The notes: generated by a model from the sequence alone, not told the origin. A DNA stretch of 41,016 bases from Bacteroidota bacterium (GCA_039930605.1 JBDTTM010000001.1:1-41016), one strand, 5' to 3'; shown: positions 1 through 24,365, counted from the stretch's first letter. Made by a program: numbers and translations.

Positions 1-1565
1 GTACGCTTTCGGCAAAAAAATTCGGGGGTGATGAAAAGGTGGAAATCAAAAAGCAAGAACCAGCAAAGGCTGAACCGGTGAAAGCTGCATCAGCTCCGCA
101 ACCTGTGGAAAGCGGAAATCCACAGTTAAGACGTAAACGGATAATTCCACCAAAGAAAGAAGGAGAAGCAGGAACATCTGTACAGACCACTGCTCCTGTA
201 GTGAGGACACAGGCGCCAAAGCCGGTAGTAGAAAAAAGAATGCCTGAGGAAGTCGTTTTAAAAGAAGTAGCTCCTGAAATGAGAGAGCCTGTGCGCGAGC
301 AACAAACCCAGCAGCAACGGAATGATTTCGACAGAGGAAATGGGAACAATAACAACAGTAACAACAACAACAACAACGGGAATAACAATAACAACAACAA
401 TACTTACCGTCAGCGTAAAGAATTCACCATCCAGGAACCGGTATATGAACTGGATAGTGTGATTACGGCAGAAGGCGTTCTTGAAATCATGCCTGATGGA
501 TTTGGATTCCTCAGGTCATCAGATTACAATTACCTTACGTCTCCCGATGATGTTTATGTATCAGTTTCACAAATTAAATTATTCGGTATTAAGACAGGTG
601 ATACAGTAAGGGGAACTGTGCGACCTCCCCGCGAAGGAGAAAAATATTTTCCGCTGGTAAAGGTTGACCTTGTGAATGGCCAGGATCCACAGGTGGCAAA
701 GGACAGGATTCATTTTGACTACCTCACTCCCCTCTTCCCTTTTGAAAAATTAAACCTCAGTGGAGATAAATCAAACTACACAACACGTGTAATGGATATG
801 TTCACACCAATAGGTAAAGGCCAGCGTGGACTTGTAGTTGCACAGCCAAAGACGGGTAAAACAACAGTTCTCAAAGACATTGCCAATGCTATCGCGGCAA
901 ATCACCCGGAAGTTTACCTGATCGTATTATTGATCGATGAACGTCCCGAGGAAGTTACGGATATGGCAAGAAGTGTAAATGCTGAAGTGGTGGCATCTAC
1001 TTTTGATGAGCCGGCTGAACGCCACGTAAAAATTGCAAACATCGTCCTTGAAAAAGCAAAACGCATGGTTGAATGCGGGCATGATGTAGTGATCGTACTT
1101 GATTCCATCACCCGGTTAGCACGGGCATATAATACGGTAGCGCCTGCCTCAGGCAAGGTACTGAGTGGTGGTGTTGAAGCAAATGCCTTGCACAAGCCGA
1201 AGCGTTTTTTCGGCTCTGCCCGTAAAATTGAAAATGGCGGCTCTCTTACCATCATTGCAACAGCGTTAACTGAAACAGGATCGAGAATGGATGAAGTTAT
1301 CTTTGAAGAATTCAAAGGAACAGGTAACATGGAGTTGCAGTTAGAGAGGAAGCTTTCAAACAAACGTATTTTCCCTGCTATTGACCTGGTTGCTTCCAGT
1401 ACACGGAGGGATGATTTGTTGCTCGACAAGGAAATGCTTCAGAAAATGTGGATCTTGCGCAATCACCTTTCTGATATGACTGCGATGGAAGCGATGGAAT
1501 TCCTCTTACAGAACATGAAAGGAACCAAATCGAATGAAGAGTTTTTGATTTCAATGAACGGTTGA
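1..1565 (+). CDS. rho: Transcription termination factor Rho, 5'-truncated by the window edge. The frame is open from nt 3, so the GTG at 39 in the ORF track is internal.
   Basis: RNA-binding OB region [20 protein letters not shown]. Walker [86 protein letters not shown]. No stop codon between nt 3 and 39 in the same frame. Confidence 0.93.
336..401 (+). repeat. AAC/AAT-rich coding microsatellite encoding [22 protein letters not shown] inside the Rho N-terminal insertion
   Basis: Direct reading: runs of aac/aat codons, including six consecutive aac. The tract lies in a Q/N/P/E-rich low-complexity stretch (about nt 39-420). Confidence 0.9.
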
Positions 1566-1596: not shown

Positions 1597-1959
1597 ATGA
1601 AAATTCTGATTTGTGAAGATGATGAGATGGTGTTGAAGATGGTTGAATTCAAACTTCGTAAGGAAGGTTATGAAGTACATCTTGCGCATGATGGGAAGGA
1701 ATCTGCTGCGAGGATTGAAGAATTAAAACCTGACCTGATCATCACTGATATTATGATGCCCTACCTCAATGGACTGGAGATTGTGAATCACGTAAGGAAG
1801 ACACTTAAGTATAAAACGCCCATCATTATCGTCTCATCCATTGGACTGGAGAAAACGGTATTGGAAGCTTTTCAACTCGGTGCGGATGATTTTATCACCA
1901 AACCTTTCAGTCCAAATGAACTCTCCGTTCGTGTAAAAAAATTGTTGATGAAAGCATAA
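1597..1959 (+). CDS. Stand-alone response-regulator receiver (CheY-like, no output domain)
   Basis: 120 aa. Acidic pocket CEDDE, phospho-acceptor Asp in LIITDIMMP, IIIVSS, and conserved Lys in FITKPF. Confidence 0.88.
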   Translation: MKILICEDDEMVLKMVEFKLRKEGYEVHLAHDGKESAARIEELKPDLIITDIMMPYLNGLEIVNHVRKTLKYKTPIIIVSSIGLEKTVLEAFQLGADDFITKPFSPNELSVRVKKLLMKA

Positions 1960-2001
1960 ATATTTCATCGCACAGAAAATTTTTTTTCTTTTCTTTCGAA
2001 A

Positions 2002-3417
2002 ATGATTCAGCGGGTATTCTTATGGTCTGTATTCATTGCTTTTTTATGCATGAAACCAACGAATGGGTTTGCGCAAAAAAAAGCTGTTTCTGACACGATC
2101 ATTGTTGTTAGCGATACCACGGACATTGATGCACTTTTCAAACGGGCCCGGAACCTCGCTTACAATAAGGAATACATCCAATCGAGGAAAATTCTGAATG
2201 CCATTCTGGATAGCAAACAGGATTATTATGATGTCCGGTCATTTTTAGGCCGCACGTATGCATGGGACCAGCAATACAATGAAGCCCGGACAGAATTCAG
2301 TAAGGTATTGATAGAAAAACCTGATTTTGCAGATGCGCTTGATGCCTTGATCGATGTTGAAATATGGACAGAACAATTTACTGTTGCCAATGAATACATC
2401 AAGATTGCTTTGGGTTACTTTCCGACCTCGGAACTTTTCCTGATGAAAAAAGTGAAAGTAAGTTTACGACAGCAGGATAAACTTACAGCTTCACTGACTT
2501 TGCGAAAGATCCTGGAATTAAATCCCGGTAACAAGGATGCATTGAAAATGCTGAATGAGACTGGAGGATTAAAACTCAACAATCATCTTACTTTCGGTTA
2601 CGTGGTTGATTTCTACAACAGGCAAAACACCCCGCAACAACTTTCTTCGGTTGAATATGGCAAGAGTTTTAAATTCGCATCCCTTAGTTTGAGAGGCAAC
2701 TATGCTGATAAATTCGGAAAAGGCGGATGGCAGGGTGAGCTGGATGCGTATGTGAATTTTGTGAAAGGGACTTATGCATACCTGAACGGCGGCTATTCCC
2801 AGGTTTCCATTTTTCCGGATTATAAATTCGGAGGTGATATTTATCAAAAACTCTTTGGAGGATTTGAAATGTCACTTGGCGCGCGTTACCTTCATTTTGA
2901 CACCAATGATTCCCTCAAGCTAAAGGTTGGAAAAAAGGTAAGCAGTCCCCGTGATGACTCACTTATCTATTTGAAGAAAAATCAGGGTACTTTGCTATAC
3001 ACCGTTTACCTTGGAAATTACTTCCGGAACTATTGGTTTTCTTTAAGGGCTTATTACACGCCGCAGATTACCTTGAAAAACACTGTCGGAAACTCTATTA
3101 ATAAAGACGCAAGTACGACCCTGATATTAAATATCAGGTACTATGTAAGTGATGCCGACAATTACATTGGAATAAAATTAGGCAGTGGCCGTTCGCCCGA
3201 TGTACCATCCGCTGCAACACTTGATCCTGCGACCTTGAAAGCCGATGCCGGAGACCCTGCTACACTGAAAAGTTATTCCGGTGGAGTCGAAATTCAACGT
3301 GCAGCATTTGGAAGATGGCTGGTGAAAGGTGAAATGGGATATACCAGGGAACAGGCCGCTGCTGACAGATTTTTTCAGCGCATCACATTGAATATTTCTC
3401 TTAAAAACATTTTCTGA
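2002..3417 (+). CDS. Outer-membrane protein: signal peptide, TPR-like N-half, YaiO-like beta-barrel C-half (PgaA/NfrA-style exporter architecture)
   Basis: Signal peptide ending GFAQ. Helical repeat region with A/Y/L spacing typical of TPR (about aa 40-190). The C-half is rich in alternating aromatic/hydrophilic strands (TFGYVVDFY, YAYLNGGYS, LLYTVYLGNYF, LILNIRYYV) and ends ISLKNIF. The YaiO assignment is from memory of the family, not a search. Confidence 0.65.
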   Translation: MIQRVFLWSVFIAFLCMKPTNGFAQKKAVSDTIIVVSDTTDIDALFKRARNLAYNKEYIQSRKILNAILDSKQDYYDVRSFLGRTYAWDQQYNEARTEFSKVLIEKPDFADALDALIDVEIWTEQFTVANEYIKIALGYFPTSELFLMKKVKVSLRQQDKLTASLTLRKILELNPGNKDALKMLNETGGLKLNNHLTFGYVVDFYNRQNTPQQLSSVEYGKSFKFASLSLRGNYADKFGKGGWQGELDAYVNFVKGTYAYLNGGYSQVSIFPDYKFGGDIYQKLFGGFEMSLGARYLHFDTNDSLKLKVGKKVSSPRDDSLIYLKKNQGTLLYTVYLGNYFRNYWFSLRAYYTPQITLKNTVGNSINKDASTTLILNIRYYVSDADNYIGIKLGSGRSPDVPSAATLDPATLKADAGDPATLKSYSGGVEIQRAAFGRWLVKGEMGYTREQAAADRFFQRITLNISLKNIF

Positions 3418-3422
3418 TATCT

Positions 3423-4757
3423 ATGAAAGTCCGTTCCATTGCTTTTTTGCTTTCTATTTTTTGTATTCATGTGTCATCCGGCCAGGTTAAGCCGGCAGTA
3501 GAAAAAAAGATAAAGGAATATGGTGAAGCATTCTTTGAAAAAGATACGCTCCATTCTTTTAAAATTTATTTTACACAATGTAATTACATTGATTCACTCA
3601 GGATCTACAAGCATGTCGGGGATTCATTGAGGAATAATAAATACCTGCAGGCGAACATCATGGTTGATGGCAAGATGATTTTTGCCTGCGGCATCCGGTA
3701 TAAAGGAGAATCGAGTTATGACTTTTATCCGGGTGTAAAAAAATCTTTTCGAATCAAATTTGATAAGTTTAAAAAAGGACAGGATTACAAGGGTCTTTGT
3801 GAAATAAACCTGACCAATAATTTCAAGGATCCTACGATGCTGCGCGAAAAATTGTACCTGGACATCTTGAATAAAAACGGACTTCCTGCTCCTCGTGCAA
3901 CCTATGCAAAGGTTTATATCAATGACAAATTCTGGGGATTTTACCTTGCCACTGAAAATATAGATGATGTTTTTTTAGAACGGAATTTTCATGAAGCCAA
4001 AGGCAACCTATACCAGGGAGAGCCATTGGCAAATTTTGTTGATTACGGAGCCCGGCAGGATTCCTATTACAACAAATACGTATTGAAGACGAACACGAAA
4101 AAAAATGACTGGAGTGACCTTGTCCGGTTCATCCAGCTTATCAATGATTCGTCAGGAACTGAAGCGGAATACCAGAAGCGCCTCGAGGCAAAATTCTCTT
4201 TGCATCAATGCCTGAAAGCATGGGCAATCAATAACCTGATCGGTAATGTGGATGCCTACAATATGTTTTACCCGCATAATTTTTTTGTGTACCATGATAC
4301 TGTTTCAAGCAGGTGGCATTGGATCTCCCTGGATGGAAATTATGCTTTCGCAGCTTGGAATCCGATATTGAATTATGACCAGTTAATCAGGATGAATATC
4401 CTGATCCCGGATTCTGTGCCTTATCGCGATGAGCGTCCGTTGTTAACGCGCACTCTTGGCAGGAATAAATTGATTCAAAGACAATATCTCCTGTATCTCC
4501 GTGAATTATTAAATACTGATTTCCTCCCGGAGAATATTAATAAAATGGTGGATAGTTTGTCTGCAAAAATACGGCTGGGAGTTTATGCTGATTCCAACAA
4601 AATGTATTCGAATACGGACTTTGACTCGAACCTTTCTTCTACAATCGGTGATCCAACAGATCCGGGTAATTTCATTCCAGGCATCAAAAGTTACATTGCC
4701 GACAGGAGAAAAAATATACTGGATCAACTGGAAACCTTGTTGAAAAAGTTGGAGTAG
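3423..4757 (+). CDS. Secreted CotH-family (atypical kinase fold) protein
   Basis: Signal peptide MKVRSIAFLLSIFCIHVSSGQ. CotH-like blocks RYKGESSYDF, SFRIKFDKF, LREKLYLDILN, YAKVYINDKFWGFY, VDAYNMFYPHNFFVYHD, RWHWISLDGNYAF. Starts 5 nt after the upstream gene. Confidence 0.75.
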   Translation: MKVRSIAFLLSIFCIHVSSGQVKPAVEKKIKEYGEAFFEKDTLHSFKIYFTQCNYIDSLRIYKHVGDSLRNNKYLQANIMVDGKMIFACGIRYKGESSYDFYPGVKKSFRIKFDKFKKGQDYKGLCEINLTNNFKDPTMLREKLYLDILNKNGLPAPRATYAKVYINDKFWGFYLATENIDDVFLERNFHEAKGNLYQGEPLANFVDYGARQDSYYNKYVLKTNTKKNDWSDLVRFIQLINDSSGTEAEYQKRLEAKFSLHQCLKAWAINNLIGNVDAYNMFYPHNFFVYHDTVSSRWHWISLDGNYAFAAWNPILNYDQLIRMNILIPDSVPYRDERPLLTRTLGRNKLIQRQYLLYLRELLNTDFLPENINKMVDSLSAKIRLGVYADSNKMYSNTDFDSNLSSTIGDPTDPGNFIPGIKSYIADRRKNILDQLETLLKKLE

Positions 4758-4839
4758 CAACTGCTTTTCACTGCCCGGTGCTTTTACTTTTGCTTTCGCC
4801 TTAATAATTCACATTTACTTTTTTTAAGTGCAGCCAGTT

Positions 4840-5985
4840 ATGTCATTTCTTCAGATTGATCTTTATGAAATTCCTAATACTGCTGATGAATGGGGAAAGC
4901 TATTGTACTCCTTCCCTATTCACATCAGAATATTAATGGGCGTCATTTTAATTTTTTGCCTCATCATAACCATTCTGTTTGCTGTAATCATTGGCAGCCG
5001 TATTTTCAAGACGAACAGGAGCAGAACAGAAAAATACATCAGAAAAAAATACCAGCCGGTTTTTACCCAGCTTCTGTTTGAAGATGACAGCAGATTAATT
5101 TCCGGGACATTTTTTACTTTGTTTGATAAAAATGACCTGAAGAATAAGCACCGGAGGAGTGTTCTTCTTGAGGAGCTGATACACCTGCATGAAAATTTTA
5201 CCGGAGAAACGGCTGTGCGCCTGGAGTTAATTTACCGCAAACTGGAATTTCACCAGGACTCTTTGGAAAAGCTCAAAAGCAGGAAGTGGTACCTTGTGGC
5301 GAAGGGTTTGCGTGAACTGGCGTTGATGAACATCAGGGAGGCAACAACACCAATTCTGCAATTTATCAAAAGCAAGAATGAAATTCTCCGTATGGAAGCC
5401 CGGATAGCATTGGTAAAATTAAGCGAAAAAGATCCCCTGTTTTTCCTGGAGAAAGAAAGCGAGGCCCTGAGTGCCTGGGATATGGCCAATTTGCATGCGA
5501 TGCTTGTCAAAATTCCTGAAGGCAATATTCCTGCCTTTAATACCTGGCTAAACTCACCGAATAAATCAGTTGTACTATTTTGTATTTCGATGATCGGTGC
5601 ATTCAAACAGAATAGCGCAGTTCCGATATTGATAAAGCTCCTGGAAAGCGATGATGATTCATTCAAGCAGGCTGTGATTAAGGCCCTGCGTGAAATGAAT
5701 GCGCTGCAGGCGGAAGAAAAATTAATCAGTATGTATGCACATGAATCTTCTCTAGTGCAGAATGAAATCCTGAGGTCGCTGGAAACAATTGCTTCAGAAA
5801 AAAGCATACCGCTTTATGAAAGGATACTCCGGCAACCTGTTCCTGAGTTGCAGCATGCTTTACATTCCGTGAAAGGACTGGTCACACTTGGAGATCGTGG
5901 GAAAAAAATTCTTTCTGCGATAGCAGACTTAAAAAATGAAAGGCTTCAGCTTATAATAAGTCATGCATCCGATGCACGGATGTAA
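4840..5985 (+). CDS. Single-pass membrane protein with HEAT / PBS-lyase-like repeats (alternative GTG start at 4828)
   Basis: TM helix ILMGVILIFCLIITILFAVIIG followed by a basic stretch. Repeated approximately 30-aa helical units (ARIALVKLSEKDP, AVPILIKLLESDDDSFKQAVIKALREM, NEILRSLETIASEKSIPLYERIL). Confidence 0.7.
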   Translation: MSFLQIDLYEIPNTADEWGKLLYSFPIHIRILMGVILIFCLIITILFAVIIGSRIFKTNRSRTEKYIRKKYQPVFTQLLFEDDSRLISGTFFTLFDKNDLKNKHRRSVLLEELIHLHENFTGETAVRLELIYRKLEFHQDSLEKLKSRKWYLVAKGLRELALMNIREATTPILQFIKSKNEILRMEARIALVKLSEKDPLFFLEKESEALSAWDMANLHAMLVKIPEGNIPAFNTWLNSPNKSVVLFCISMIGAFKQNSAVPILIKLLESDDDSFKQAVIKALREMNALQAEEKLISMYAHESSLVQNEILRSLETIASEKSIPLYERILRQPVPELQHALHSVKGLVTLGDRGKKILSAIADLKNERLQLIISHASDARM

Positions 5986-6010
5986 ATGATAAAAAGGATG
6001 AATTGAACAC

Positions 6011-7441
6011 ATGGGATACTTTTTCTATTACTTCACAAAATTCGCGGATCACTTTATACTGGTGTATTCATGCCTGATTTTTGCTACCTATGTAATCCTA
6101 TCCACTTATTCAGGACTTGACATCATCAATTATATCAGGAAGAACAGTTTTATTGACTACAGGACCATCTTGACCGCTCCGACGGCGCCTTCCATTTCTA
6201 TTCTTGCCCCGGCATACAATGAAGAGGCAACCATCGTGGACAACATCCGGTCACTGCTGAATATCCACTATGTAAACTTCGAGGTGATCATCATCAATGA
6301 CGGCAGCAAGGACAAAACGATGCAATTAATGATTGAAGCGTACGACCTGGAGCCGGTTCCGTATGCCTTTGACCAGAAGATAGACTGTAAACCGATCCGT
6401 GCTGTTTACAAATCAAGAATTCCATCACTTACCAAACTTACAGTGGTCGACAAGGTGAATGGCGGAAAAGCAGATGCGCTCAATTCGGGAATCAACGTGA
6501 GCAAGTACGATTACTTTGCTGCGATTGATGTTGACTGTGTTCTTGAATATGAGGCATTGCTTAAAATGGTAAAACCATTTATGGAGCAAACCGATAAAGA
6601 AAGAGTAATTGCCGTGGGAGGTGTAGTTCGAATTGCGAATTCATGCAAGGTGCAGGATGGAAAAATTGTTGAAGTCAACCTGCCGAAGGATTTTTTGCCA
6701 CGCGCGCAGGTACTTGAATATATCAGGGCATTCCTGATGGGTCGCATGGCCTGGAGTAAGCTCAATGGACTGATCCTGATCTCGGGTGCCTTTGGAATGT
6801 TTGACAAAACAATTGCCATTGATTCAGGCGGCTACAATCATAAGACCGTCGGTGAAGATATGGAGCTTGTTATTCGCATGCGCCGGCTGATGGAAGAGCA
6901 GAAAATAAAATACAAGGTTGTTTATCTTCCTGATCCATTGTGCTGGACGGAGGCGCCGGCAAGTTTCAAGATCCTTGGACGCCAGCGAAATCGCTGGACA
7001 CGCGGAACGGCGGAAACACTCTGGTTTCATAAAAATTTAATTTTCAATCCGCGTTACAGGTTCCTGGGAATGGTATCCATGCCTTATTGGCTGATCTTTG
7101 AATGGCTTGCTCCCATTATTGAATCGCTTGCATTTGTTTACCTTATAGTGATGGCCTTCCTGGGAATATTGAATATCGAACTCTTCATCACGCTTTTTTT
7201 CGTGATCTACACTTTCGCAATTATGTACTCGACCAGTGCAATATTATTTGAAGAGTTATCATATCACCAGTACAAGAAAAAGCGGGATATCATCAGGTTA
7301 CTCATGACTGCTTTGATTGAGCCGGTCCTTATACATCCTATGACCGTTTACTATGCCATCAGGGGAAACCTTGATTTACTTACCGGCGTCCGCAACTGGG
7401 GTGACATGCAACGAAAGGGTTTTGCAAAGAAGAAGCCCTGA
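6011..7441 (+). CDS. Processive family-2 glycosyltransferase, PgaC/IcaA-like polysaccharide synthase
   Basis: N-terminal TM segment. GT2 core motifs APAYNEE, INDGSKD, AIDVDC (DxD), VGEDMEL, QRNRWTRG (QxxRW). Three to four C-terminal TM helices. 25 nt after the HEAT gene. Confidence 0.88.
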   Translation: MGYFFYYFTKFADHFILVYSCLIFATYVILSTYSGLDIINYIRKNSFIDYRTILTAPTAPSISILAPAYNEEATIVDNIRSLLNIHYVNFEVIIINDGSKDKTMQLMIEAYDLEPVPYAFDQKIDCKPIRAVYKSRIPSLTKLTVVDKVNGGKADALNSGINVSKYDYFAAIDVDCVLEYEALLKMVKPFMEQTDKERVIAVGGVVRIANSCKVQDGKIVEVNLPKDFLPRAQVLEYIRAFLMGRMAWSKLNGLILISGAFGMFDKTIAIDSGGYNHKTVGEDMELVIRMRRLMEEQKIKYKVVYLPDPLCWTEAPASFKILGRQRNRWTRGTAETLWFHKNLIFNPRYRFLGMVSMPYWLIFEWLAPIIESLAFVYLIVMAFLGILNIELFITLFFVIYTFAIMYSTSAILFEELSYHQYKKKRDIIRLLMTALIEPVLIHPMTVYYAIRGNLDLLTGVRNWGDMQRKGFAKKKP

Positions 7442-12938: not shown

Positions 12939-13232
12939 ATAAAGTTTTTATGTTGAGATTACTGCTACCGTGGTAAACGAACAGGTGGAATAGGCGAAAA
13001 GTATTCAACCTTTTTTTTCTGAAAGAACCTTGTAAAATGATGTAGAATCATTATCTTGCTTCCGGATTTTTATACTGCGAATAAAAAAATCAAAAGGCAA
13101 AGGGGGATGAGCATGGGAAAGGGACCCGGTTCATCAAGTTTATACAAGCTTAAAATTAATGAGAGTGATTCATTGCTCTGTAAATTGAATATGTTCGTCT
13201 CAAAGTCAAAACTATTTAATTCCAATAACCAT

Positions 13233-16200
13233 ATGAAAAAATTACTATTTGCTTTTACCATCTCCCTGGGCCTGGCAACTATTGTCAATGCACAGTGTAC
13301 ATTGACGAATGCAACAGGTTGCAGGTGCTCTGACACAACAAATACAAATTGTGATTTACTTCCTGATATATGCATCGCACGGCTGCCGCTTACACAGGCA
13401 AGTAATTATGCTGAGTATCCGCAGGTATGCAATCCGCCCTGCAATGGAAATGACGCAAGGTTGCGACTTGGAGTCTCTACACCTATAATTGGATTTGGAC
13501 CACTGGAGACGAGAGGTACATCCAAGTATGTATGCGGAACGGATACGGTAGATGCAGGTACAGTTGCAAATATTCCAACTGCCTGCCCGGTGACTGGGGT
13601 ACCACCCCATCAATTGATAAACCAACGTATATATCATAAAAGCGGAAACACGATGACCTTTACTGACCGTGCTGCAGGATCGATGACTTATCATCCAACA
13701 CATGGTCACCAACATGTCGACAACTGGGGTATTTATACATTAAGGACAGCGACTGCAGATCCTAACCCTGTCAATTGGCCAATCATCGGAACAGGAACGA
13801 AACTTGGTTTCTGCTTATTGGATATCGGTAGTTGCAATGGCGGCGTCGGATATTGCACTGACTCTGCAGGTAACACTTTAACCCAGACAAATTTTAATAC
13901 AAGCAGTTTCCGGAATTATGGATTAGGTGGAGGCAGCTATGGTTGTTCCAATACAATGCAGGGAATTTCGAATGGTTATATGGACACCTACAGTTCCGGC
14001 CTGGATGGGATGTGGATTACCATTCCTCCCGGAACATGCAACGGTACTTATTATGTGGTTATTCAAATTGACCCATTGAACTATTTTAATGAAACCAATG
14101 AAAACAACAATGTTGTTGCTGTACCATTTACCCTCACTCAGCAGGCAGGCAGTGCAGTTTCCATCGGCGTAAGCGGACCCACAACTTTTTGCCAGGGTGG
14201 AAGTGTTACGTTGACGGCAAGCAGCGGTGCGTTGAACTACGTATGGTCCAATGGAGCAACAACACAGGCAATTGTAGTAACCACTTCAGGTACATATACA
14301 GTAAGCAGTAATACTTCAACAAGTTGTCCATCTGTTTCGGCACCTGTAACTATAAATGTGACTCCTATGAATGTGGTTGCAGCATCATCTCCGTTAGCAG
14401 TTTGCCAGGGTCAAAGCGTTCAATTATCTACTTCAACAAATGCTGCTTCAACTGTAAATCTTATATCAACTTCTACCAGCAATACGCAGGTATTCATCCC
14501 TGATAACAATGCAACCGGTGTTACATCTCCAATTACTATTGCGGGAATTAATCCAACAACTTTGAATGCAAACTCAATTGTTTCTGTTACCCTGAATCTT
14601 ACCCATACTTATGATGGTGACCTGATCGTTTCATTGATTTCACCTACAGGAAGTACCATCTACCTGAGCAACAGAAGAGGCGGCGGCGGACATAATTTTA
14701 CGAATACCATTTTCACCATGAGTGCAATAACTGCTGTTGGTTCTGGCGCTGCACCTTTTACAGGATCATTTGTTCCTGATGGTGCATACAGTTCTCTTAG
14801 CGGGAATGTAAATGGAACCTGGCAATTAAAAGTGGCGGATGTGGCTGCTGTTGATACAGGCAGAATTGTTAACTGGACTTTAAAATTATTCAATACTGTA
14901 ACGAATGTAGTTACCTACAACTGGACTTCAAACCCGGCGGGATTTAGTTCTACGCAGCAGAACCCGTCAGCCACGCCATCTGGTACTACCAGTTATACTG
15001 TTTCAGCATCTGACTTGAGCGGATGTGCAGGAACTTCTGCAGTAAGTGTCACTGTGAACCCGGTTCCTGTTATTTCCATCAGTCCCCCGATAAGCATTTG
15101 TGCCGGTGCAAGTACCACACTTACAGCTTCCGGTGCCAATTCATACCTCTGGTCTAACGGTGCCACAACTGCTAGTATCACTGTTACACCACCAGGGACT
15201 ACAACCTATTCCGTGAATGGTACCACAGCAGGATGTACGGGCACCAATAGTGTTACCGTAACAATCAGTTCAGTGATTTCTGTTGGTGTTTCATCAATTC
15301 AAAATGCAATTTGTACAGGTCAATCCACTACGTTGAACGCTACAGGAGCTTCAACCTATACATGGAACCCGGGCGGCTTATCTGGCGCCAGTGTTTCGGT
15401 TTCGCCGGCATCCTCAACTACCTATACCGTTACCGGAACAAGCGCCGGATGCACAGGTACAAACTCTATTGCAATTACCGTAAACCCATTGCCAACAGTA
15501 ACCGCGGGTAATGTAAGCGGTTGTGCAGGAACTTCTATTGCATTATCAGGAACTCCAGTTGGAGGAACCTGGAGTGTTGGGAATCCTTACTCCGGAAGCA
15601 GTACTAATTACACGCATACTTATACTAATGCAAATGGTTGTACCAATACAAGTGCTTCAGCAAATGTGACTGTTAATCCATTGCCGGCTGTTTCATCATC
15701 ATCAATTGCAGTGAGTTGCTTTGGCAGCATCAACGGATCGGTAACTGCATCTGCTTCCGGTGGAACACCTGTCTATAATTATTCATGGAATACAATACCG
15801 GTTCAGAATACGGCAACTGCTTCAGGAATTTCATCAGGTAATTACCAGGTTACGGTAACTGATGCAAACGGATGTATTGGTACCCAAACACAGTCTGTAT
15901 CTCAACCGGCAGTTATTTCTTCCTCTGCCAATGTTTCCGATGCAACGTGTGGATTATCCAATGGAAGTATAGACCTCTCCCCTTCCGGCGGTACTGCTCC
16001 TTTTAGTTATAGCTGGAATCCGGGTGGTGCCACATCTCAGGATCTTTCAGGAGTTGCGGCAGGCAATTATTCAGTACTTGTGACTGATGCCAATGGTTGT
16101 AGTCATTCTCAAACTTATACAGTATCACAAACAGGAGGGGCTCCCTCAGCGCCGGCTGCCGCTACAGGCAACAATTATATCTGTAAGAATGCATTTGGGA

Positions 16201-17450
16201 CTTCTTATTCGGTAGCCCTTGTAGCTGGTGCTACTTCATACACATGGTCAGTTCCAACCGGAGCAACGATTGCCACCGGGCAGGGATCAGGTTCAGTAAC
16301 AGTAAACTTCAGTGCTACACAGGCATCCGGAAATGTTTGTGTGTATGCTTCCAATGGTTGTGGCAGCAGTGCTTCTGTTTGTAAACCACTAACAGTAGTA
16401 ACGGCCAAACCGGGTGTACCAAGTGGAATTATTGCTCCGGCACTTTCATGCGAAGGTGCAACGGGGTTGTCATTTTCCTGCCTTGCTGTTATTAAAGCTG
16501 AATCCTATAACTGGAGTTTCCCTGCTGGTGTTGTAATCACCGGTGGCAGCGGTACAAATGCAGTTACTGTTAATATGCCAGCCACTTTTGTATCAGGAAG
16601 CGTTCGCGTTTCAGCAAGCAATTGTTTCGGTACCAGCAGCAACCGAGCGCTTACCATTTATGGCAAACCTTCAACACCGGGAGTGATAACTGGCGCAATC
16701 AATGAAGTATGTCCCGGTTCTGTGGCAATACCTTATACTGTAGCACCGGTAACAGCTGCATCCGGCTTTACATGGACACCTCCATTGAATGCTACAATTG
16801 CAAGCGGTCAAGGAACCAATTCGGTTACTGTTGACTACAGCGCATCCTTTACAACAGGAGCACTAAAAGTGGTTGCTGACAATATTTGTGGATCAAGCAG
16901 CATCCGCAGTACCACCATTCGTTCTGTACCTGTAACTCCAAACGGGATCACAGGAAGTGCTGCTGTTTGTGCGAACCAGACAGGCGTAGCTTATTCTGTG
17001 GCAGCAGTTGCCGGCGCTACCTCTTATGCATGGACGGTTCCAACAGGAGCAACGGTTGCTACCGGGCAAGGAACCGGTTCAATCACAGTAAACTTTGGCA
17101 GTGCATCAGGAAAGGTGAGTGTGCGATCGGTTAATTCCTGCGGACAAAGTTCAGCCCGAACATTCCAGGCAACCATCAACTGCAGGCAATCAGAAGCGAT
17201 CAGCGAATTATCACTCTTCCCCAATCCTGCGCATGACAAGTTGAACGTTGCATTCTATTCAGTTACCGAAGGTCCTTATGAAACCATCATCAGGGATGTA
17301 ACAGGGCGCATCGTTTACATCGGAAACAATCATGCCGTTGAAGGACAAAATCAACTGGAGATGAACATGACGGAATTTGCAAAAGGTGTGTACATGCTTT
17401 CTTTTGAAATGAATGATGTACATCTCGTGAGGAAGATTGCTGTTGAGTAA
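13233..17450 (+). CDS. Multidomain T9SS cargo: lysyl-oxidase-like domain, Ig-like repeats, proprotein-convertase P domain, SprB-type repeats, PKD-like repeats, T9SS C-terminal domain
   Basis: The ORF is open from 13056, but MKKLLFAFTISLGLATIVNAQ (ATG at 13233) is the first signal peptide. Domains are listed as separate entries below. Confidence 0.9.
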   Translation: MKKLLFAFTISLGLATIVNAQCTLTNATGCRCSDTTNTNCDLLPDICIARLPLTQASNYAEYPQVCNPPCNGNDARLRLGVSTPIIGFGPLETRGTSKYVCGTDTVDAGTVANIPTACPVTGVPPHQLINQRIYHKSGNTMTFTDRAAGSMTYHPTHGHQHVDNWGIYTLRTATADPNPVNWPIIGTGTKLGFCLLDIGSCNGGVGYCTDSAGNTLTQTNFNTSSFRNYGLGGGSYGCSNTMQGISNGYMDTYSSGLDGMWITIPPGTCNGTYYVVIQIDPLNYFNETNENNNVVAVPFTLTQQAGSAVSIGVSGPTTFCQGGSVTLTASSGALNYVWSNGATTQAIVVTTSGTYTVSSNTSTSCPSVSAPVTINVTPMNVVAASSPLAVCQGQSVQLSTSTNAASTVNLISTSTSNTQVFIPDNNATGVTSPITIAGINPTTLNANSIVSVTLNLTHTYDGDLIVSLISPTGSTIYLSNRRGGGGHNFTNTIFTMSAITAVGSGAAPFTGSFVPDGAYSSLSGNVNGTWQLKVADVAAVDTGRIVNWTLKLFNTVTNVVTYNWTSNPAGFSSTQQNPSATPSGTTSYTVSASDLSGCAGTSAVSVTVNPVPVISISPPISICAGASTTLTASGANSYLWSNGATTASITVTPPGTTTYSVNGTTAGCTGTNSVTVTISSVISVGVSSIQNAICTGQSTTLNATGASTYTWNPGGLSGASVSVSPASSTTYTVTGTSAGCTGTNSIAITVNPLPTVTAGNVSGCAGTSIALSGTPVGGTWSVGNPYSGSSTNYTHTYTNANGCTNTSASANVTVNPLPAVSSSSIAVSCFGSINGSVTASASGGTPVYNYSWNTIPVQNTATASGISSGNYQVTVTDANGCIGTQTQSVSQPAVISSSANVSDATCGLSNGSIDLSPSGGTAPFSYSWNPGGATSQDLSGVAAGNYSVLVTDANGCSHSQTYTVSQTGGAPSAPAAATGNNYICKNAFGTSYSVALVAGATSYTWSVPTGATIATGQGSGSVTVNFSATQASGNVCVYASNGCGSSASVCKPLTVVTAKPGVPSGIIAPALSCEGATGLSFSCLAVIKAESYNWSFPAGVVITGGSGTNAVTVNMPATFVSGSVRVSASNCFGTSSNRALTIYGKPSTPGVITGAINEVCPGSVAIPYTVAPVTAASGFTWTPPLNATIASGQGTNSVTVDYSASFTTGALKVVADNICGSSSIRSTTIRSVPVTPNGITGSAAVCANQTGVAYSVAAVAGATSYAWTVPTGATVATGQGTGSITVNFGSASGKVSVRSVNSCGQSSARTFQATINCRQSEAISELSLFPNPAHDKLNVAFYSVTEGPYETIIRDVTGRIVYIGNNHAVEGQNQLEMNMTEFAKGVYMLSFEMNDVHLVRKIAVE
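13350..14142 (+). other. Lysyl-oxidase-like catalytic domain
   Basis: By-eye alignment to human LOX: DLLPD vs DLVPD. YHPTHGHQHVDNW vs WHSCHQHYHSMDEF (HxHxH at 13701-13715). GTKLGFCLLDIGSC vs GHKASFCLEDTSC (Lys codon 13800-13802). QGISNGYMDTYSSGLDGMWITI...NETNENNNVV vs [22 protein letters not shown]...ESDYTNNVV (Tyr codon 13989-13991). Confidence 0.75.
14490..14895 (+). other. Proprotein-convertase P domain (no adjoining subtilisin domain)
   Basis: IPDNNATGVTSPITI...VSVTLNLTHTYDGDLIVSLISPTGSTIYLSNRRGGGGHNF...GNVNGTWQLKVADVAAVDTGRIVNWTLKL matches the P_proprotein pattern (H.y.gDL...L.SP.Gt...L; G.W.L.v.D....d.G.l..W.L). Confidence 0.7.
15690..16130 (+). repeat. Two SprB-type repeats (coding)
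   Basis: VSCFGSINGSVTASASGGTPVYNYSWN...GNYQVTVTDANGC and ATCGLSNGSIDLSPSGGTAPFSYSWN...GNYSVLVTDANGC. Confidence 0.55.
16135..17170 (+). repeat. Four tandem PKD-like / Ig-like repeats of about 87 aa (coding)
   Basis: Recurrent pattern P..P..I.G...vC.....YSV..V.GATSY.W.vP.GAti..GQG..S.TVnF.....G.v.V...N.CG.S. Units 1 and 4 share GATSY(T/A)W(S/T)VPTGAT(I/V)ATGQG(S/T)GS(V/I)TVNF. Confidence 0.6.
17205..17447 (+). other. T9SS type-A C-terminal sorting domain
   Basis: ELSLFPNPAHDKLNVAF...DVTGRIVY...GQNQLEMNMTEFAKGVYMLSFEMNDVHLVRKIAVE. Confidence 0.85.
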
Positions 17451-23889: not shown

Positions 23890-24333
23890 TTAATTCCACT
23901 GATTCTTTTCCATCTCCTTCAACTTTAAAAGGGAACAAACAATGTTTGCAAAAACAGTCTTGTTTGTCTTGAGGAAATAATCGGTAGCGCCTTTGCGTAA
24001 TGTTTCAATTGCCTTTTCAAGATCATCCTGACCGGAGACGATGATGACCACAGCCATCGGGTTCAATGCCTTTATCATTTGAAGGACTTCAAGGCCGTTC
24101 GGACCATCAGCGAATTCATAATCAAGGATGATCTTGCGGCTATCCCCGGAACGGTAGTTTTTCAGGAAGTCATTCCCACTTTTATATAACTCGGCTCTCA
24201 ACTCAACAATAGTTAACAGGTAATCTTTTAGCATAAAGCTAAAACCCGGGTCGTCATCAACAATTATGACTTGTGTATCTGTAGTCTCATTTTCGATTTC
24301 CACCTTGAGAGGCTCCTCAACTGGTTTAGGCAT
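23890..24333 (-). CDS. Stand-alone response-regulator receiver. ATG at 24333 is preferred over the TTG at 24360.
   Basis: VIIVDDDPGF, acceptor Asp in KIILDYEF, VIIVSG, YFLKT. A TAAGTTTG -7 box overlaps the TTG-24360 codon and lies 25 nt upstream of ATG 24333. Confidence 0.85.
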   Translation of the reverse strand: MPKPVEEPLKVEIENETTDTQVIIVDDDPGFSFMLKDYLLTIVELRAELYKSGNDFLKNYRSGDSRKIILDYEFADGPNGLEVLQMIKALNPMAVVIIVSGQDDLEKAIETLRKGATDYFLKTNKTVFANIVCSLLKLKEMEKNQWN

Positions 24334-24357
24334 GATCTTATAGTTGTTATGAAAGGG

Positions 24358-24365
24358 CAAACTTA
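24358..24365 (-). promoter_or_regulatory. Putative -7 box (TAAGTTTG on the minus strand)
   Basis: Plus strand reads caaactta. Confidence 0.4.

What the first reader, a model, noticed from the sequence alone, without database searches (positions are those of the whole stretch)
1597..7441. Five-gene synthase-dependent exopolysaccharide module with a non-canonical accessory set (receiver, TPR/YaiO-like porin, CotH, TM-HEAT, PgaC-like GT2)
Seen in sequence: five same-strand ORFs separated by gaps of 42, 5, 82 and 25 nt. The last ORF has TM segments flanking a GT2 core that carries the processive-synthase signature (APAYNEE, INDGSKD, AIDVDC, VGEDMEL, QRNRWTRG). It aligns by eye with PgaC/IcaA. The second ORF has a signal peptide, a TPR-like half and a beta-barrel half, which is the PgaA/BcsC/NfrA exporter layout. 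Its barrel resembles YaiO. Between them sit a signal-peptide CotH protein and a single-pass HEAT-repeat protein, and a bare receiver domain leads the cluster. Established knowledge: characterised synthase-dependent systems (Pga, Ica, Bcs, Alg, Pel, Nfr) pair the synthase with deacetylases or epimerases and with c-di-GMP receptors (PgaB/PgaD, PilZ of BcsA/Alg44, PelD, NfrB). None of them uses CotH or a HEAT protein. In E. coli K-12, yaiO lies close to the uncharacterised GT2 gene yaiP, as far as I recall. Inference: this is a distinct, uncharacterised polysaccharide synthesis-export system. It may be controlled by phosphorylation (receiver and/or CotH) rather than c-di-GMP, because no GGDEF, EAL or PilZ element is visible here.
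Basis: partly seen in the sequence, partly recalled or inferred. Interest (0 to 1): 0.75.

Follow-up and report, generated by a model that had tools for sequence, protein, structure and literature searches.

The report
Receiver-linked polysaccharide synthase–export gene cluster
This is a gene cluster for making and exporting a surface polysaccharide; its core (a small phospho-receiver, a membrane HEAT-repeat partner, a PgaC-like synthase and a TPR/YaiO outer-membrane pore) is widespread in Bacteroidota and apparently unstudied, while the CotH kinase-like gene is an add-on found in only one narrow lineage.

Summary
The five ORFs, their spacing, domains and motifs are all confirmed. They form a synthase-dependent exopolysaccharide module, but it is not a five-gene unit. 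Across 80 Bacteroidota species genomes plus the window, the conserved core is a stand-alone receiver (74/81), a TM-HEAT protein (78/81, always directly upstream of the synthase, median gap 2 nt), a GT2 synthase (81/81) and a TPR+YaiO barrel (61/81). CotH occurs only in the window's own clade (3/81, plus 16 metagenome contigs in identical gene order). The slot between porin and HEAT holds an LtaS/OpgB-like transferase in L040 and a weakly deacetylase-like protein in L059; 27 of 81 loci carry the transferase somewhere. Natural fusions (HEAT–GT2, HEAT–GT2–receiver, GT2–LtaS-like, GT2–YaiO) tie the parts together. Hybrid histidine kinases with Hpt domains often sit directly upstream of the receiver, which supports phosphorelay control. 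The synthase is PgaC-like (29% identity) but fails the PgaC equivalog cutoff, and PgaB and PgaD are absent. CotH beside a synthase-dependent system already has precedent in Gram-positive Pel clusters. The polymer and every mechanism are untested. Verdict: a real, apparently uncharacterised new variant of a known kind; moderately high interest.

The parts
1597..1959 (+). Stand-alone receiver (120 aa), the proposed phosphorylation-dependent regulator of the synthase. It has the acidic residues D8/D9, phospho-acceptor D51, S80 and K102.
   Evidence: Pfam Response_reg 4e-29. D8, D51, S/T80 and K102 are conserved in 81-85 of 86 orthologs. It lies in the module in 74/81 loci. A receiver is fused to the C-terminus of HEAT-GT2 in P0430.
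2002..3417 (+). Outer-membrane exporter candidate (471 aa): signal peptide (nt 2002-2073), TPR domain (aa 42-186, nt 2125-2559) and YaiO-family beta-barrel (aa 194-470, nt 2581-3411).
   Evidence: PF19413 1.3e-40, TIGR04390 1.1e-25 and TPR_19. AF2 pLDDT 81.9. Foldseek best hit is E. coli BcsC 9b8a, E 3e-11, followed by OM barrels and PelBC. The family ends in a C-terminal F. Present in 61/81 loci.
3423..4757 (+). Exported CotH-family (atypical kinase fold) protein, 444 aa. It is a clade-specific accessory in the slot between the porin and the HEAT protein.
   Evidence: PF08757 3.5e-58. B. cereus CotH 5jd9 matches at E 1e-11. K106/K107, D277, N286 and D304 (the two Asp correspond to B. subtilis D228 and D251) are invariant in 22-23 of 23 relatives. 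Sec-type signal peptides occur in all full-length orthologs. Found in only 3/81 genome loci; all 16 metagenome relatives at 58% identity or more lie in contexts consistent with the same five-gene order; many contigs are truncated.
4840..5985 (+). Single-pass membrane HEAT-repeat protein (381 aa; alternative GTG start at 4828). Inferred N-out/C-in topology with a cytoplasmic alpha-solenoid. Proposed obligate co-subunit of the synthase.
   Evidence: HEAT_2 1e-15. AF2 pLDDT 85.6, with a long helix at 27-81 followed by a solenoid. Directly upstream of GT2 in 78/78 untruncated loci, median gap 2 nt, 40/90 overlapping. The N-terminal part of about 32 fused HEAT-GT2 proteins aligns to this family (hhalign probability 98%, E 3e-13). 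Bacteroidales homologs have a signal peptide and SPOR domain before the TM helix.
6011..7441 (+). Membrane-embedded processive-type GT2 polysaccharide synthase (476 aa), PgaC-like.
   Evidence: TIGR03937 PgaC_IcaA 134 bits (below the cutoff of 422), TIGR03111 120 bits, plus CelA and NodC partial hits and Chitin_synth_2 37.5 bits. 29% identical to E. coli PgaC. The D, DxD, ED and QRxRW motifs are invariant in 83 members. Hydrophobic helices flank the GT core.

Best explanation
The region encodes a synthase-dependent exopolysaccharide system of a type that is widespread in Bacteroidota.

Shown by sequence, structure prediction and synteny:
- An inner-membrane GT2 with all the processive-synthase motifs.
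- A single-pass membrane protein with a cytoplasmic HEAT solenoid, whose gene is always directly upstream of the synthase gene (often overlapping it) and which is fused to the synthase in many relatives.
- A stand-alone receiver with intact phospho-acceptor residues.
- A TPR plus YaiO-family outer-membrane barrel.

Inferred mechanism:
- The GT2 polymerises a nucleotide sugar and threads the chain across the inner membrane. The polymer is unknown; a PNAG-like beta-linked hexosamine or hexose chain is the best guess.
- The HEAT protein is a co-subunit or scaffold.
- A hybrid histidine kinase with an Hpt domain, adjacent in many relatives but encoded elsewhere for this window, phosphorylates the receiver. 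The phosphorylated receiver binds the HEAT/GT2 cytoplasmic face and switches synthesis on or off after translation. This is the role c-di-GMP receptors play in Bcs, Pga, Alg, Pel and Nfr.
- The TPR domain receives the chain in the periplasm and the barrel exports it.
- CotH is an exported, catalytically intact kinase-fold enzyme acquired by one clade. It occupies the slot between porin and HEAT that holds an LtaS/OpgB-like transferase in L040 and a weakly deacetylase-like protein in L059. It most likely modifies or matures the polymer or the export apparatus in the periplasm rather than acting as the master regulator.
For: - Domains and motifs.
- Census over 81 loci: GT2 81, HEAT 78, REC 74, YaiO 61, LtaS-like 27, CotH 3.
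- HEAT to GT2 gap: median 2 nt, 40/90 overlapping.
- Fusions among 150 cluster representatives: about 32 N-terminal HEAT-GT2 (hhalign 98%, E 3e-13); P0308 HEAT-GT2-TPR; P0430 HEAT-GT2-Response_reg (37 bits, above cutoff); P0334 GT2-HEAT; P0339 and P0355 GT2-YaiO; P0284, P0287, P0290 and P0293 GT2-LtaS-like.
- Histidine kinase: immediately upstream of the receiver in 25/66 loci; 22 of the 66 have a kinase with an Hpt domain within 6 kb, almost all of them these adjacent hybrids.
- Receiver phospho-residues are conserved.
- Porin: AF2 model and BcsC/PelBC structural matches.
- HEAT topology: SPOR-carrying homologs.
- The slot between porin and HEAT holds an LtaS-like gene in L040, a deacetylase-like gene in L059 and CotH in the window clade.
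- CotH catalytic residues are invariant.
Against: - There are no experimental data for any member. The polymer, its export and the receiver's target are all inferred.
- The window and its 94%-identical relative L105 have no kinase next to the module (rho lies upstream), and none was found in the 41 kb.
- The receiver could be a phosphate sink or act on something else.
- 20/81 loci show no YaiO gene within about 10 kb.
- The HEAT model matches only generic designed solenoids, so it gives no mechanistic clue.
- A periplasmic kinase has no known ATP source.
- Fusion proteins come from automated gene calls on metagenomes. Some, especially GT2-YaiO, could be artefacts, and their taxonomy is unknown.
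- The promoter and terminator scans were uninformative.
- The literature search covered open-access text only.
Confidence: 0.62

Rival explanations
1. It is simply a diverged Pga (PNAG) operon. The GT2 is PgaC, the TPR-barrel is PgaA, and the other genes are incidental neighbours.
For: JGI labels relatives 'PgaC'. PgaC_IcaA is the best NCBIfam hit. The GT2 is 29% identical to E. coli PgaC. Two relatives carry a weakly CE4-like 629-aa protein (PF01522 E 5.7e-4).
Against: The PgaC equivalog score is 134 against a cutoff of 422. The PgaA model hits only the TPR region at 14.9 bits against 366. No PgaB or PgaD homolog is present. HEAT and REC are conserved and fused to the synthase, so they are not incidental. 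The XrtG-associated GT model scores almost as well, at 120 bits.
Confidence: 0.12
2. CotH is the regulator. It phosphorylates the TPR/porin, the periplasmic tail of the HEAT protein or another envelope protein to gate export.
For: CotH is a proven Ser/Thr protein kinase in Bacillus spores (PMC7821199). Its catalytic residues are intact here. It is exported to the compartment that holds the TPR domain.
Against: CotH is absent from 78/81 loci that otherwise have the same core, so it cannot be the general control. No Ser-rich repeat substrate like CotB or CotG is encoded in the module. There is no known ATP supply in the periplasm.
Confidence: 0.12
3. The GT2 makes a periplasmic or membrane-associated glycan, such as an OPG-like glucan or a glycolipid, rather than a secreted polymer. 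The YaiO barrel would have another role.
For: A third of relatives pair the GT2 with an LtaS/OpgB-like phosphoglycerol-transferase-type enzyme, as the OPG pathway does. 20/81 loci show no nearby barrel.
Against: TPR+barrel genes are in or beside 61/81 loci, and GT2-TPR and GT2-YaiO fusions exist. No OpgH, OpgG or OpgD signatures were found. The best structural match of the porin is the cellulose exporter BcsC.
Confidence: 0.1
4. The five genes are not one functional unit in this genome. The receiver belongs with rho or other neighbours, and the adjacency is fortuitous.
For: The receiver starts 31 nt after the rho stop. No promoter or terminator could be assigned.
Against: The REC-...-HEAT-GT2 order is conserved across five orders with different flanking genes. 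Rho is upstream only in the window's sublineage.
Confidence: 0.04

Closest known systems
PgaABCD poly-beta-1,6-GlcNAc system (E. coli) and IcaADBC
   Same: Both have an inner-membrane GT2 synthase with D, DxD, ED and QxxRW motifs and flanking TM helices (29% identity to PgaC). Both have an outer-membrane protein built from periplasmic TPRs plus a C-terminal barrel.
   Different: There is no PgaB deacetylase/hydrolase and no PgaD. The synthase is far below the equivalog cutoff and has two family-specific insertions (about aa 107-132 and 214-227). The barrel belongs to the YaiO family, not the PgaA family, and has only about 145 aa of TPR. A receiver and a HEAT partner stand where PgaCD has c-di-GMP binding.
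Bacterial cellulose synthase BcsA/B/C with BcsG
   Same: BcsC is the best structural match of the porin model. BcsA aligns over the TED-QxxRW-TM region (profile E 7e-4). BcsG, a membrane alkaline-phosphatase-superfamily enzyme that adds phosphoethanolamine to the nascent polymer (my own knowledge), is a functional parallel to the LtaS/OpgB-like genes in 27/81 relatives.
   Different: There is no PilZ domain and no BcsB. The transferase in relatives matches PF00884 (LtaS/OpgB-like), and no BcsG-family model was reported for it. The window clade has CotH instead of that transferase.
E. coli K-12 yaiO-yaiX-yaiP-yaiS cryptic cluster
   Same: A YaiO-family barrel gene lies beside a membrane GT2 (YaiP: PAYNE, NDGS, DAD, VED and RWRRW motifs plus 3 C-terminal hydrophobic helices; 26% identity to the window GT2, E 2e-10).
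   Different: E. coli YaiO has no TPR domain. That cluster has an acyltransferase (yaiX, split by IS2) and a PIG-L-type deacetylase (yaiS), and no HEAT, receiver or CotH gene. It is itself uncharacterised.
Gram-positive Pel clusters (pelDEADAFG) with cotH, polyphosphate polymerase and DUF4956 accessory genes
   Same: A secreted CotH-family protein is encoded beside a synthase-dependent EPS system in organisms with little or no c-di-GMP control. Deletion of the S. intermedius CotH-like gene lowers polymer output.
   Different: Pel uses a GT4 (PelF) with PelD, PelE and PelG, not a GT2 synthase. Polyphosphate-polymerase and DUF4956 accessory genes were not screened for; none of the five module proteins or the ten neighbours scanned gave such a Pfam hit. 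The S. intermedius CotH-like protein carries a C-terminal FN3 domain.
Pel inner-membrane complex PelD/PelE (Pseudomonas); functional analogy from my own knowledge
   Same: A membrane-anchored cytoplasmic alpha-solenoid (PelE, TPR-like) together with a signal receptor (PelD) assembles with the glycosyltransferase.
   Different: No sequence relationship was detected. The receptor here is a phospho-receiver rather than a GAF/GGDEF c-di-GMP binder.
Myxococcus xanthus EpsW (single-domain response regulator)
   Same: A stand-alone phosphorylated receiver activates polysaccharide synthesis after translation by binding the biosynthetic enzyme.
   Different: Its target is a phosphoglycosyl transferase of a Wzx/Wzy pathway, not a processive synthase. 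No HEAT partner is involved.
NfrA/NfrB/YbcH (E. coli)
   Same: A GT2 synthase with a regulatory module, a TPR-rich outer-membrane exporter and a small accessory protein.
   Different: NfrB shows no significant similarity to the window GT2 (E 0.13). NfrB is annotated as cyclic-di-GMP-activated in the E. coli record. NfrA is 990 aa.

Membership tests
Synthase-dependent exopolysaccharide secretion systems (general kind) | Inner-membrane processive GT2 (or equivalent) synthase with D, DxD, (T)ED and QxxRW motifs and a TM channel | tested here: met
   The motifs are invariant in 83 members. Full-length hits are only to PgaC/IcaA, XrtG-GT, CelA, NodC and chitin synthase models; non-processive GT2 models match only aa 58-110. 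Hydrophobic helices flank the core. Processivity itself was not tested.
Synthase-dependent exopolysaccharide secretion systems (general kind) | Outer-membrane beta-barrel porin coupled to periplasmic TPR repeats | tested here: met
   Pfam and TIGRFAM YaiO plus TPR hits. AF2 pLDDT 81.9. BcsC is the top PDB match and PelBC is also matched.
Synthase-dependent exopolysaccharide secretion systems (general kind) | Post-translational activation through an inner-membrane c-di-GMP receptor | tested here: not met
   The five proteins have no PilZ, GGDEF, EAL, GAF or MshEN domain. A receiver domain takes this position in synteny and in a fusion. Its regulatory role is inferred.
Synthase-dependent exopolysaccharide secretion systems (general kind) | Secreted polymer actually produced | not testable with these tools
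   This needs genetics and carbohydrate chemistry.
Pga/Ica PNAG system | PgaC/IcaA equivalog synthase | tested here: not met
   TIGR03937 scores 134.2 bits against a curated cutoff of 422.3; 29% identity.
Pga/Ica PNAG system | PgaB/IcaB CE4 deacetylase and the PgaD/IcaD small subunit | tested here: not met
   No hit in the module. Only 2/81 relatives have a weakly CE4-like protein, below the Pfam cutoff.
Pga/Ica PNAG system | PgaA-family porin | tested here: not met
   TIGR03939 scores 14.9 bits against a cutoff of 366, over the TPR region only.
YaiO outer-membrane barrel family (PF19413 / TIGR04390) | Match to the family models above the curated cutoff, and a beta-barrel fold | tested here: met
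   PF19413 139.7 bits (cutoff 23.9) and TIGR04390 90.9 bits (cutoff 32). The AF2 model is a barrel. NCBI annotates the identical protein as YaiO family.
CotH atypical kinase family | CotH domain with the ATP-binding Lys and the two catalytic or metal-binding Asp (B. subtilis D228 and D251) | tested here: met
   PF08757 198 bits. Alignment to 5jd9 pairs window D277 and D304 with B. cereus D224 and D247 (residue roles from PMC7821199). These are invariant in 23 relatives. Kinase activity and substrate were not tested.
Two-component receiver domains | Acidic pocket, phospho-acceptor Asp, conserved Ser/Thr and Lys | tested here: met
   D8/D9, D51, S80 and K102 are present, and D8, D51, S/T80 and K102 are conserved in 81-85 of 86 orthologs; D9 is D, N or E. 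The cognate kinase is not in the window.

The most novel reading that the evidence does not exclude
Bacteroidota, which largely lack c-di-GMP signalling, gate a processive polysaccharide synthase directly with a phosphorylated single-domain receiver acting through a dedicated HEAT-solenoid co-subunit. In the window's clade, an exported CotH kinase-fold enzyme phosphorylates the nascent polysaccharide (or its exporter) in the periplasm. It would replace the LtaS/OpgB-type phospho-transferase used by sister lineages, which would make CotH a glycan-directed extracytoplasmic kinase with an unknown phosphate donor.
Probability: 0.15. Interest if true: 0.85.

Novelty: new variant of a known kind. 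Interest (0 to 1): 0.62.

Why it matters
Synthase-dependent exopolysaccharide systems are the main model for biofilm matrix production. In every well-studied case they are switched on by c-di-GMP. Bacteroidota are dominant in gut, soil, marine and wastewater communities, and to my knowledge they mostly lack c-di-GMP machinery. How they control matrix polysaccharide synthesis is therefore largely unknown.

This module offers a concrete, phylum-wide candidate: relatives in at least 597 species genomes, and 1307 protein clusters (50% identity) at E ≤ 1e-30, whose taxonomy was not determined. It has a testable switch (hybrid kinase, Hpt domain, receiver, then HEAT/GT2) and natural fusion proteins suited to structural work.

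The swap of modifying enzymes in one genomic slot (LtaS-like, deacetylase-like or CotH) also gives a direct way to ask what exported CotH proteins do outside spores. That question has already been raised for Pel in streptococci.

Tried and rejected
- PDB sequence searches with the GT2, alone and as a profile, gave only N-terminal GT2 matches and weak BcsA hits. No closer solved synthase was found.
- Foldseek of the HEAT model returned only designed alphaRep/armadillo proteins and CpcE. No EPS component matched, so there is no mechanistic clue.
- The unannotated ~390-aa protein ('c3_390') that accompanies YaiO in many relatives has no Pfam, NCBIfam or PDB hit. It is absent from the window.
- The 629-aa protein in L059 and L043 is only weakly CE4-like and not PgaB-like by BLAST. 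I did not use it as evidence for PNAG.
- The sigma-70 promoter and terminator scan and the Bacteroidota -7 motif (TAnnTTTG) were at chance level. A match at 4785-4792 in the 82-nt CotH-HEAT gap is only a lead.
- I could not obtain the taxonomy of distant or fused relatives, so occurrence outside Bacteroidota is untested.
- Eight literature searches (YaiO; CotH with glycosyltransferase; synthase-dependent with Bacteroidetes; pgaC or PNAG with Bacteroidota genera; and others) found no description of this module. The 2020 operon survey of biofilm machineries does not mention Bacteroidetes, HEAT or response regulators.
- I checked whether the loop insertion at aa 300-325 of the porin tracks with CotH as a possible substrate. 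It does not; it is private to the window's sublineage.

Full report

Yes. The ORF list gives five + strand ORFs:
- 1597-1959 (120 aa)
- 2002-3417 (471 aa)
- 3423-4757 (444 aa)
- 4828/4840-5985 (385 or 381 aa)
- 6011-7441 (476 aa)

With the ATG at 4840, the gaps are 42, 5, 82 and 25 nt, exactly as reported. The ATG start is supported by 381-aa orthologs and by an independent gene call on a 94%-identical NCBI contig (L105).

Pfam and NCBIfam confirm the domains:
- a bare receiver (Response_reg, 4e-29);
- TPR plus a YaiO barrel (PF19413 1.3e-40; TIGR04390 1.1e-25);
- CotH (3.5e-58);
- HEAT_2 (1e-15);
- a GT2 whose only full-length matches are processive membrane synthases: PgaC_IcaA 134 bits, XrtG-associated GT 120 bits, partial CelA and NodC, and Chitin_synth_2.

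All the quoted GT2 motifs are present. D97, D173-x-D175, E282-D283 and Q325-R-x-R-W329 are invariant in 83 family members.

The window is a 41,016-bp contig of an NCBI 'Bacteroidota bacterium' MAG. The upstream gene is rho; the downstream genes are housekeeping.

**2. What is conserved?**

The best 80 are all Bacteroidota, from Sphingobacteriales, Chitinophagales, Flavobacteriales, Cytophagales and Bacteroidales.

I ran a domain census with iterated profiles over these 80 loci plus the window:

| Component | Loci (of 81) | Note |
|---|---|---|
| GT2 | 81 | |
| TM-HEAT | 78 | the 3 without it are contig ends |
| stand-alone receiver | 74 | |
| YaiO barrel | 61 | 58 with TPR |
| membrane PF00884 'sulfatase'-type enzyme | 27 | |
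| unannotated ~390-aa protein | 13 | |
| CotH | 3 | |
| weakly CE4-like protein | 2 | |

The HEAT gene is always the gene directly before the GT2. The median gap is 2 nt and 40 of 90 pairs overlap, which points to translational coupling.

The porin gene moves around. It lies between the receiver and HEAT, or downstream, or on the other strand.

So the conserved system is receiver / TM-HEAT / GT2 / TPR-YaiO, not the five genes.

**3. CotH is a clade-specific insert.**

Only the window, L001 and L005 have CotH. These are the closest relatives, with GT2 78-79% identical; all other loci are 63% or less.

A metagenome scan with CotH found 16 relatives at 58% identity or more. Every one lies in a context consistent with the order (kinase)-REC-TPR/YaiO-CotH-HEAT-GT2, although many contigs are truncated. 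The 32-35% relatives are long multidomain proteins in other contexts.

CotH orthologs all carry Sec-type signal peptides. They keep the Lys and both Asp that correspond to B. subtilis D228 and D251. Window D277 and D304 align to B. cereus D224 and D247 in 5jd9. It is therefore probably an active, exported enzyme.

The slot between porin and HEAT holds an LtaS/OpgB-like membrane enzyme in L040 and the CE4-like protein in L059. No locus has both CotH and the LtaS-like gene.

The LtaS-like proteins match LtaS and phosphoglycerol transferase models weakly, and match PDB entries 3lxq and 2w8d. They are separate genes, or fused to the C-terminus of the GT2, or fused to TPRs.

This pattern suggests, but does not show, that the slot is for a periplasmic polymer-modifying enzyme, and that CotH is one such enzyme.

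**4. Fusions tie the parts together.**

An exhaustive HMMER search of 1.84 billion cluster representatives with the GT2 gave 1307 clusters at E ≤ 1e-30. The top 150 are all full-length matches at 35-60% identity. Among them:
- About 32 are 860-1140-aa proteins whose N-terminal 390-540 aa align to the window's TM-HEAT family (hhalign probability 98%, E 3e-13, 329 columns).
- P0308 is HEAT-GT2-TPR.
- P0358 is HEAT-GT2 plus the unannotated ~390-aa protein ('c3_390').
- P0334 is GT2 with a C-terminal HEAT domain.
- P0430 is HEAT-GT2-Response_reg (37 bits, above the Pfam cutoff).
- P0339 and P0355 are GT2-YaiO.
- Several are GT2-LtaS-like.

These are automated gene calls without taxonomy. Individual cases, especially GT2-YaiO, could be artefacts, but the recurrent HEAT-GT2 fusion is strong evidence that HEAT is a subunit of the synthase. 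The receiver fused to the synthase C-terminus mirrors PilZ in BcsA.

**5. Topology and structures.**

*HEAT protein.* It has one hydrophobic helix followed by a K/R cluster. Bacteroidales homologs carry a signal peptide and a SPOR-like domain before that helix. The N-terminus is therefore periplasmic and the HEAT solenoid cytoplasmic, next to the GT domain and the receiver. AF2 (pLDDT 85.6) gives a long helix at 27-81 plus a solenoid, and PDB matches are generic.

*Porin.* The model (pLDDT 81.9) has nine helices at 42-186 and then 17 DSSP strand segments (one run broken in two, so roughly 16 strands). The best PDB match is E. coli BcsC (E 3e-11), then general outer-membrane barrels and PelBC.

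**6. Regulation.**

The receiver has D8/D9, D51, S80 and K102; D8, D51, S/T80 and K102 are conserved in 81-85 of 86 orthologs, while D9 varies between D, N and E.

In 66 loci with enough upstream sequence, a histidine kinase gene lies immediately upstream in 25. In 22 of the 66, a kinase with an Hpt domain lies within 6 kb, and almost all of these are the adjacent hybrid kinases of the HisKA-HATPase-REC-Hpt type. This includes all six CotH-clade loci (of the 66) with upstream sequence.

The window and L105 have rho there instead, and no kinase was found in the 41 kb.

I infer a phosphorelay onto the stand-alone receiver, which then acts on HEAT/GT2. This is analogous to EpsW in Myxococcus (PMC12802240) and to c-di-GMP receptors in other synthase-dependent systems.

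**7. Comparison with known systems.**

- **Pga.** This is not a Pga operon. The synthase and the porin both fail the curated NCBIfam cutoffs, and PgaB and PgaD are missing.
- **E. coli yaiO cluster.** YaiP is itself a membrane synthase-type GT2. That cluster has different accessories and is uncharacterised.
- **CotH precedent.** The claim that no synthase-dependent system uses CotH is wrong. Gram-positive pel clusters carry cotH (PMC7112168), and a secreted CotH-like protein is needed for full Pel output in S. intermedius (PMC12345266).
- **Literature.** I found no publication on the REC/HEAT/GT2/YaiO module in eight full-text searches. The 2020 operon survey does not mention Bacteroidetes. 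The search covers open-access text only.

**8. Verdict.**

This is a real and widespread system. As far as I could determine, it is an uncharacterised variant of the synthase-dependent exopolysaccharide system, with a receiver and a HEAT co-subunit where c-di-GMP receptors normally sit. It has interchangeable periplasmic modifying enzymes, of which CotH is the version in this lineage. The polymer and all the mechanisms remain inferences.

Scores: interest 0.62; novelty, new variant of a known kind.

Noticed in passing
window 39-1565 (+): The Rho termination factor has an Asn-rich low-complexity insert (…[24 protein letters not shown]…) in its N-terminal part. Its stop codon is only 31 nt before the receiver gene, so the module may be read through from rho.
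   Followed up: partly
window 13056-17450 (+): A 1464-aa type IX secretion cargo (Por_Secre_tail) combines a lysyl-oxidase-like domain, a proprotein-convertase P-domain, SprB repeats and four PKD_6 domains.
   Followed up: no
window 23890-24360 (-): A second small receiver protein (156 aa, Response_reg 1.6e-13) lies elsewhere in the window. No histidine kinase was found in the 41 kb by tblastn with the clade's hybrid kinase.
   Followed up: partly
L002:13527-14708 (-), L093:11987-13153 (-), and 11 other loci: An unannotated ~390-aa protein (referred to elsewhere as 'c3_390') has no Pfam, NCBIfam or PDB hit. It is co-oriented with the TPR-YaiO gene in Sphingobacteriia loci and lies downstream in all CotH-clade loci with room. 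It is fused to the GT2 in P0332 and P0358. It is absent from the window.
   Followed up: partly
L093:13265-14440 (+) and equivalents in L001, L005, L088, L089, L097, L098: A sigma-54-type receiver-AAA+ regulator (391 aa, NtrC model 4e-114) follows the module in CotH-clade relatives but not in the window.
   Followed up: no
P0275, P0278, P0280 (Bacteroidales homologs of window 4840-5985): These longer versions of the TM-HEAT protein carry a signal peptide and a SPOR-like (peptidoglycan-binding) domain on the periplasmic side of the TM helix.
   Followed up: partly
L010, L016, L044, L045, L053, L062, L074, L078; L036, L050, L052, L064, L075, L080: The LtaS/OpgB-like membrane enzyme is fused to the C-terminus of the GT2 in eight loci. 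In the six Flavobacteriia and Cytophagia loci listed last, it is fused to C-terminal TPRs just upstream of the YaiO gene.
   Followed up: partly
window 4785-4792 (+): A TAnnTTTG match (the Bacteroidota -7 promoter motif) sits in the 82-nt CotH-HEAT gap, the only sizeable gap in the module. Matches across the whole window are at chance level (39 found, 41 expected), so this is only a lead for an internal promoter.
   Followed up: partly
window 2002-3417, aa 300-325 and 400-420: Two low-confidence loop insertions in the barrel (KLKVGKKVSSPRDDSLIYLKKNQ and a PATLK repeat) are private to the window's sublineage. They are not shared by other CotH-clade porins.
   Followed up: yes
L081 (E. coli K-12, 380069-384616): E. 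coli YaiP has synthase-type motifs (PAYNE, NDGS, DAD, VED, RWRRW) and three C-terminal hydrophobic helices. The yaiO-yaiX-yaiP-yaiS cluster therefore looks like a small cryptic synthase-dependent locus inactivated by IS2.
   Followed up: partly
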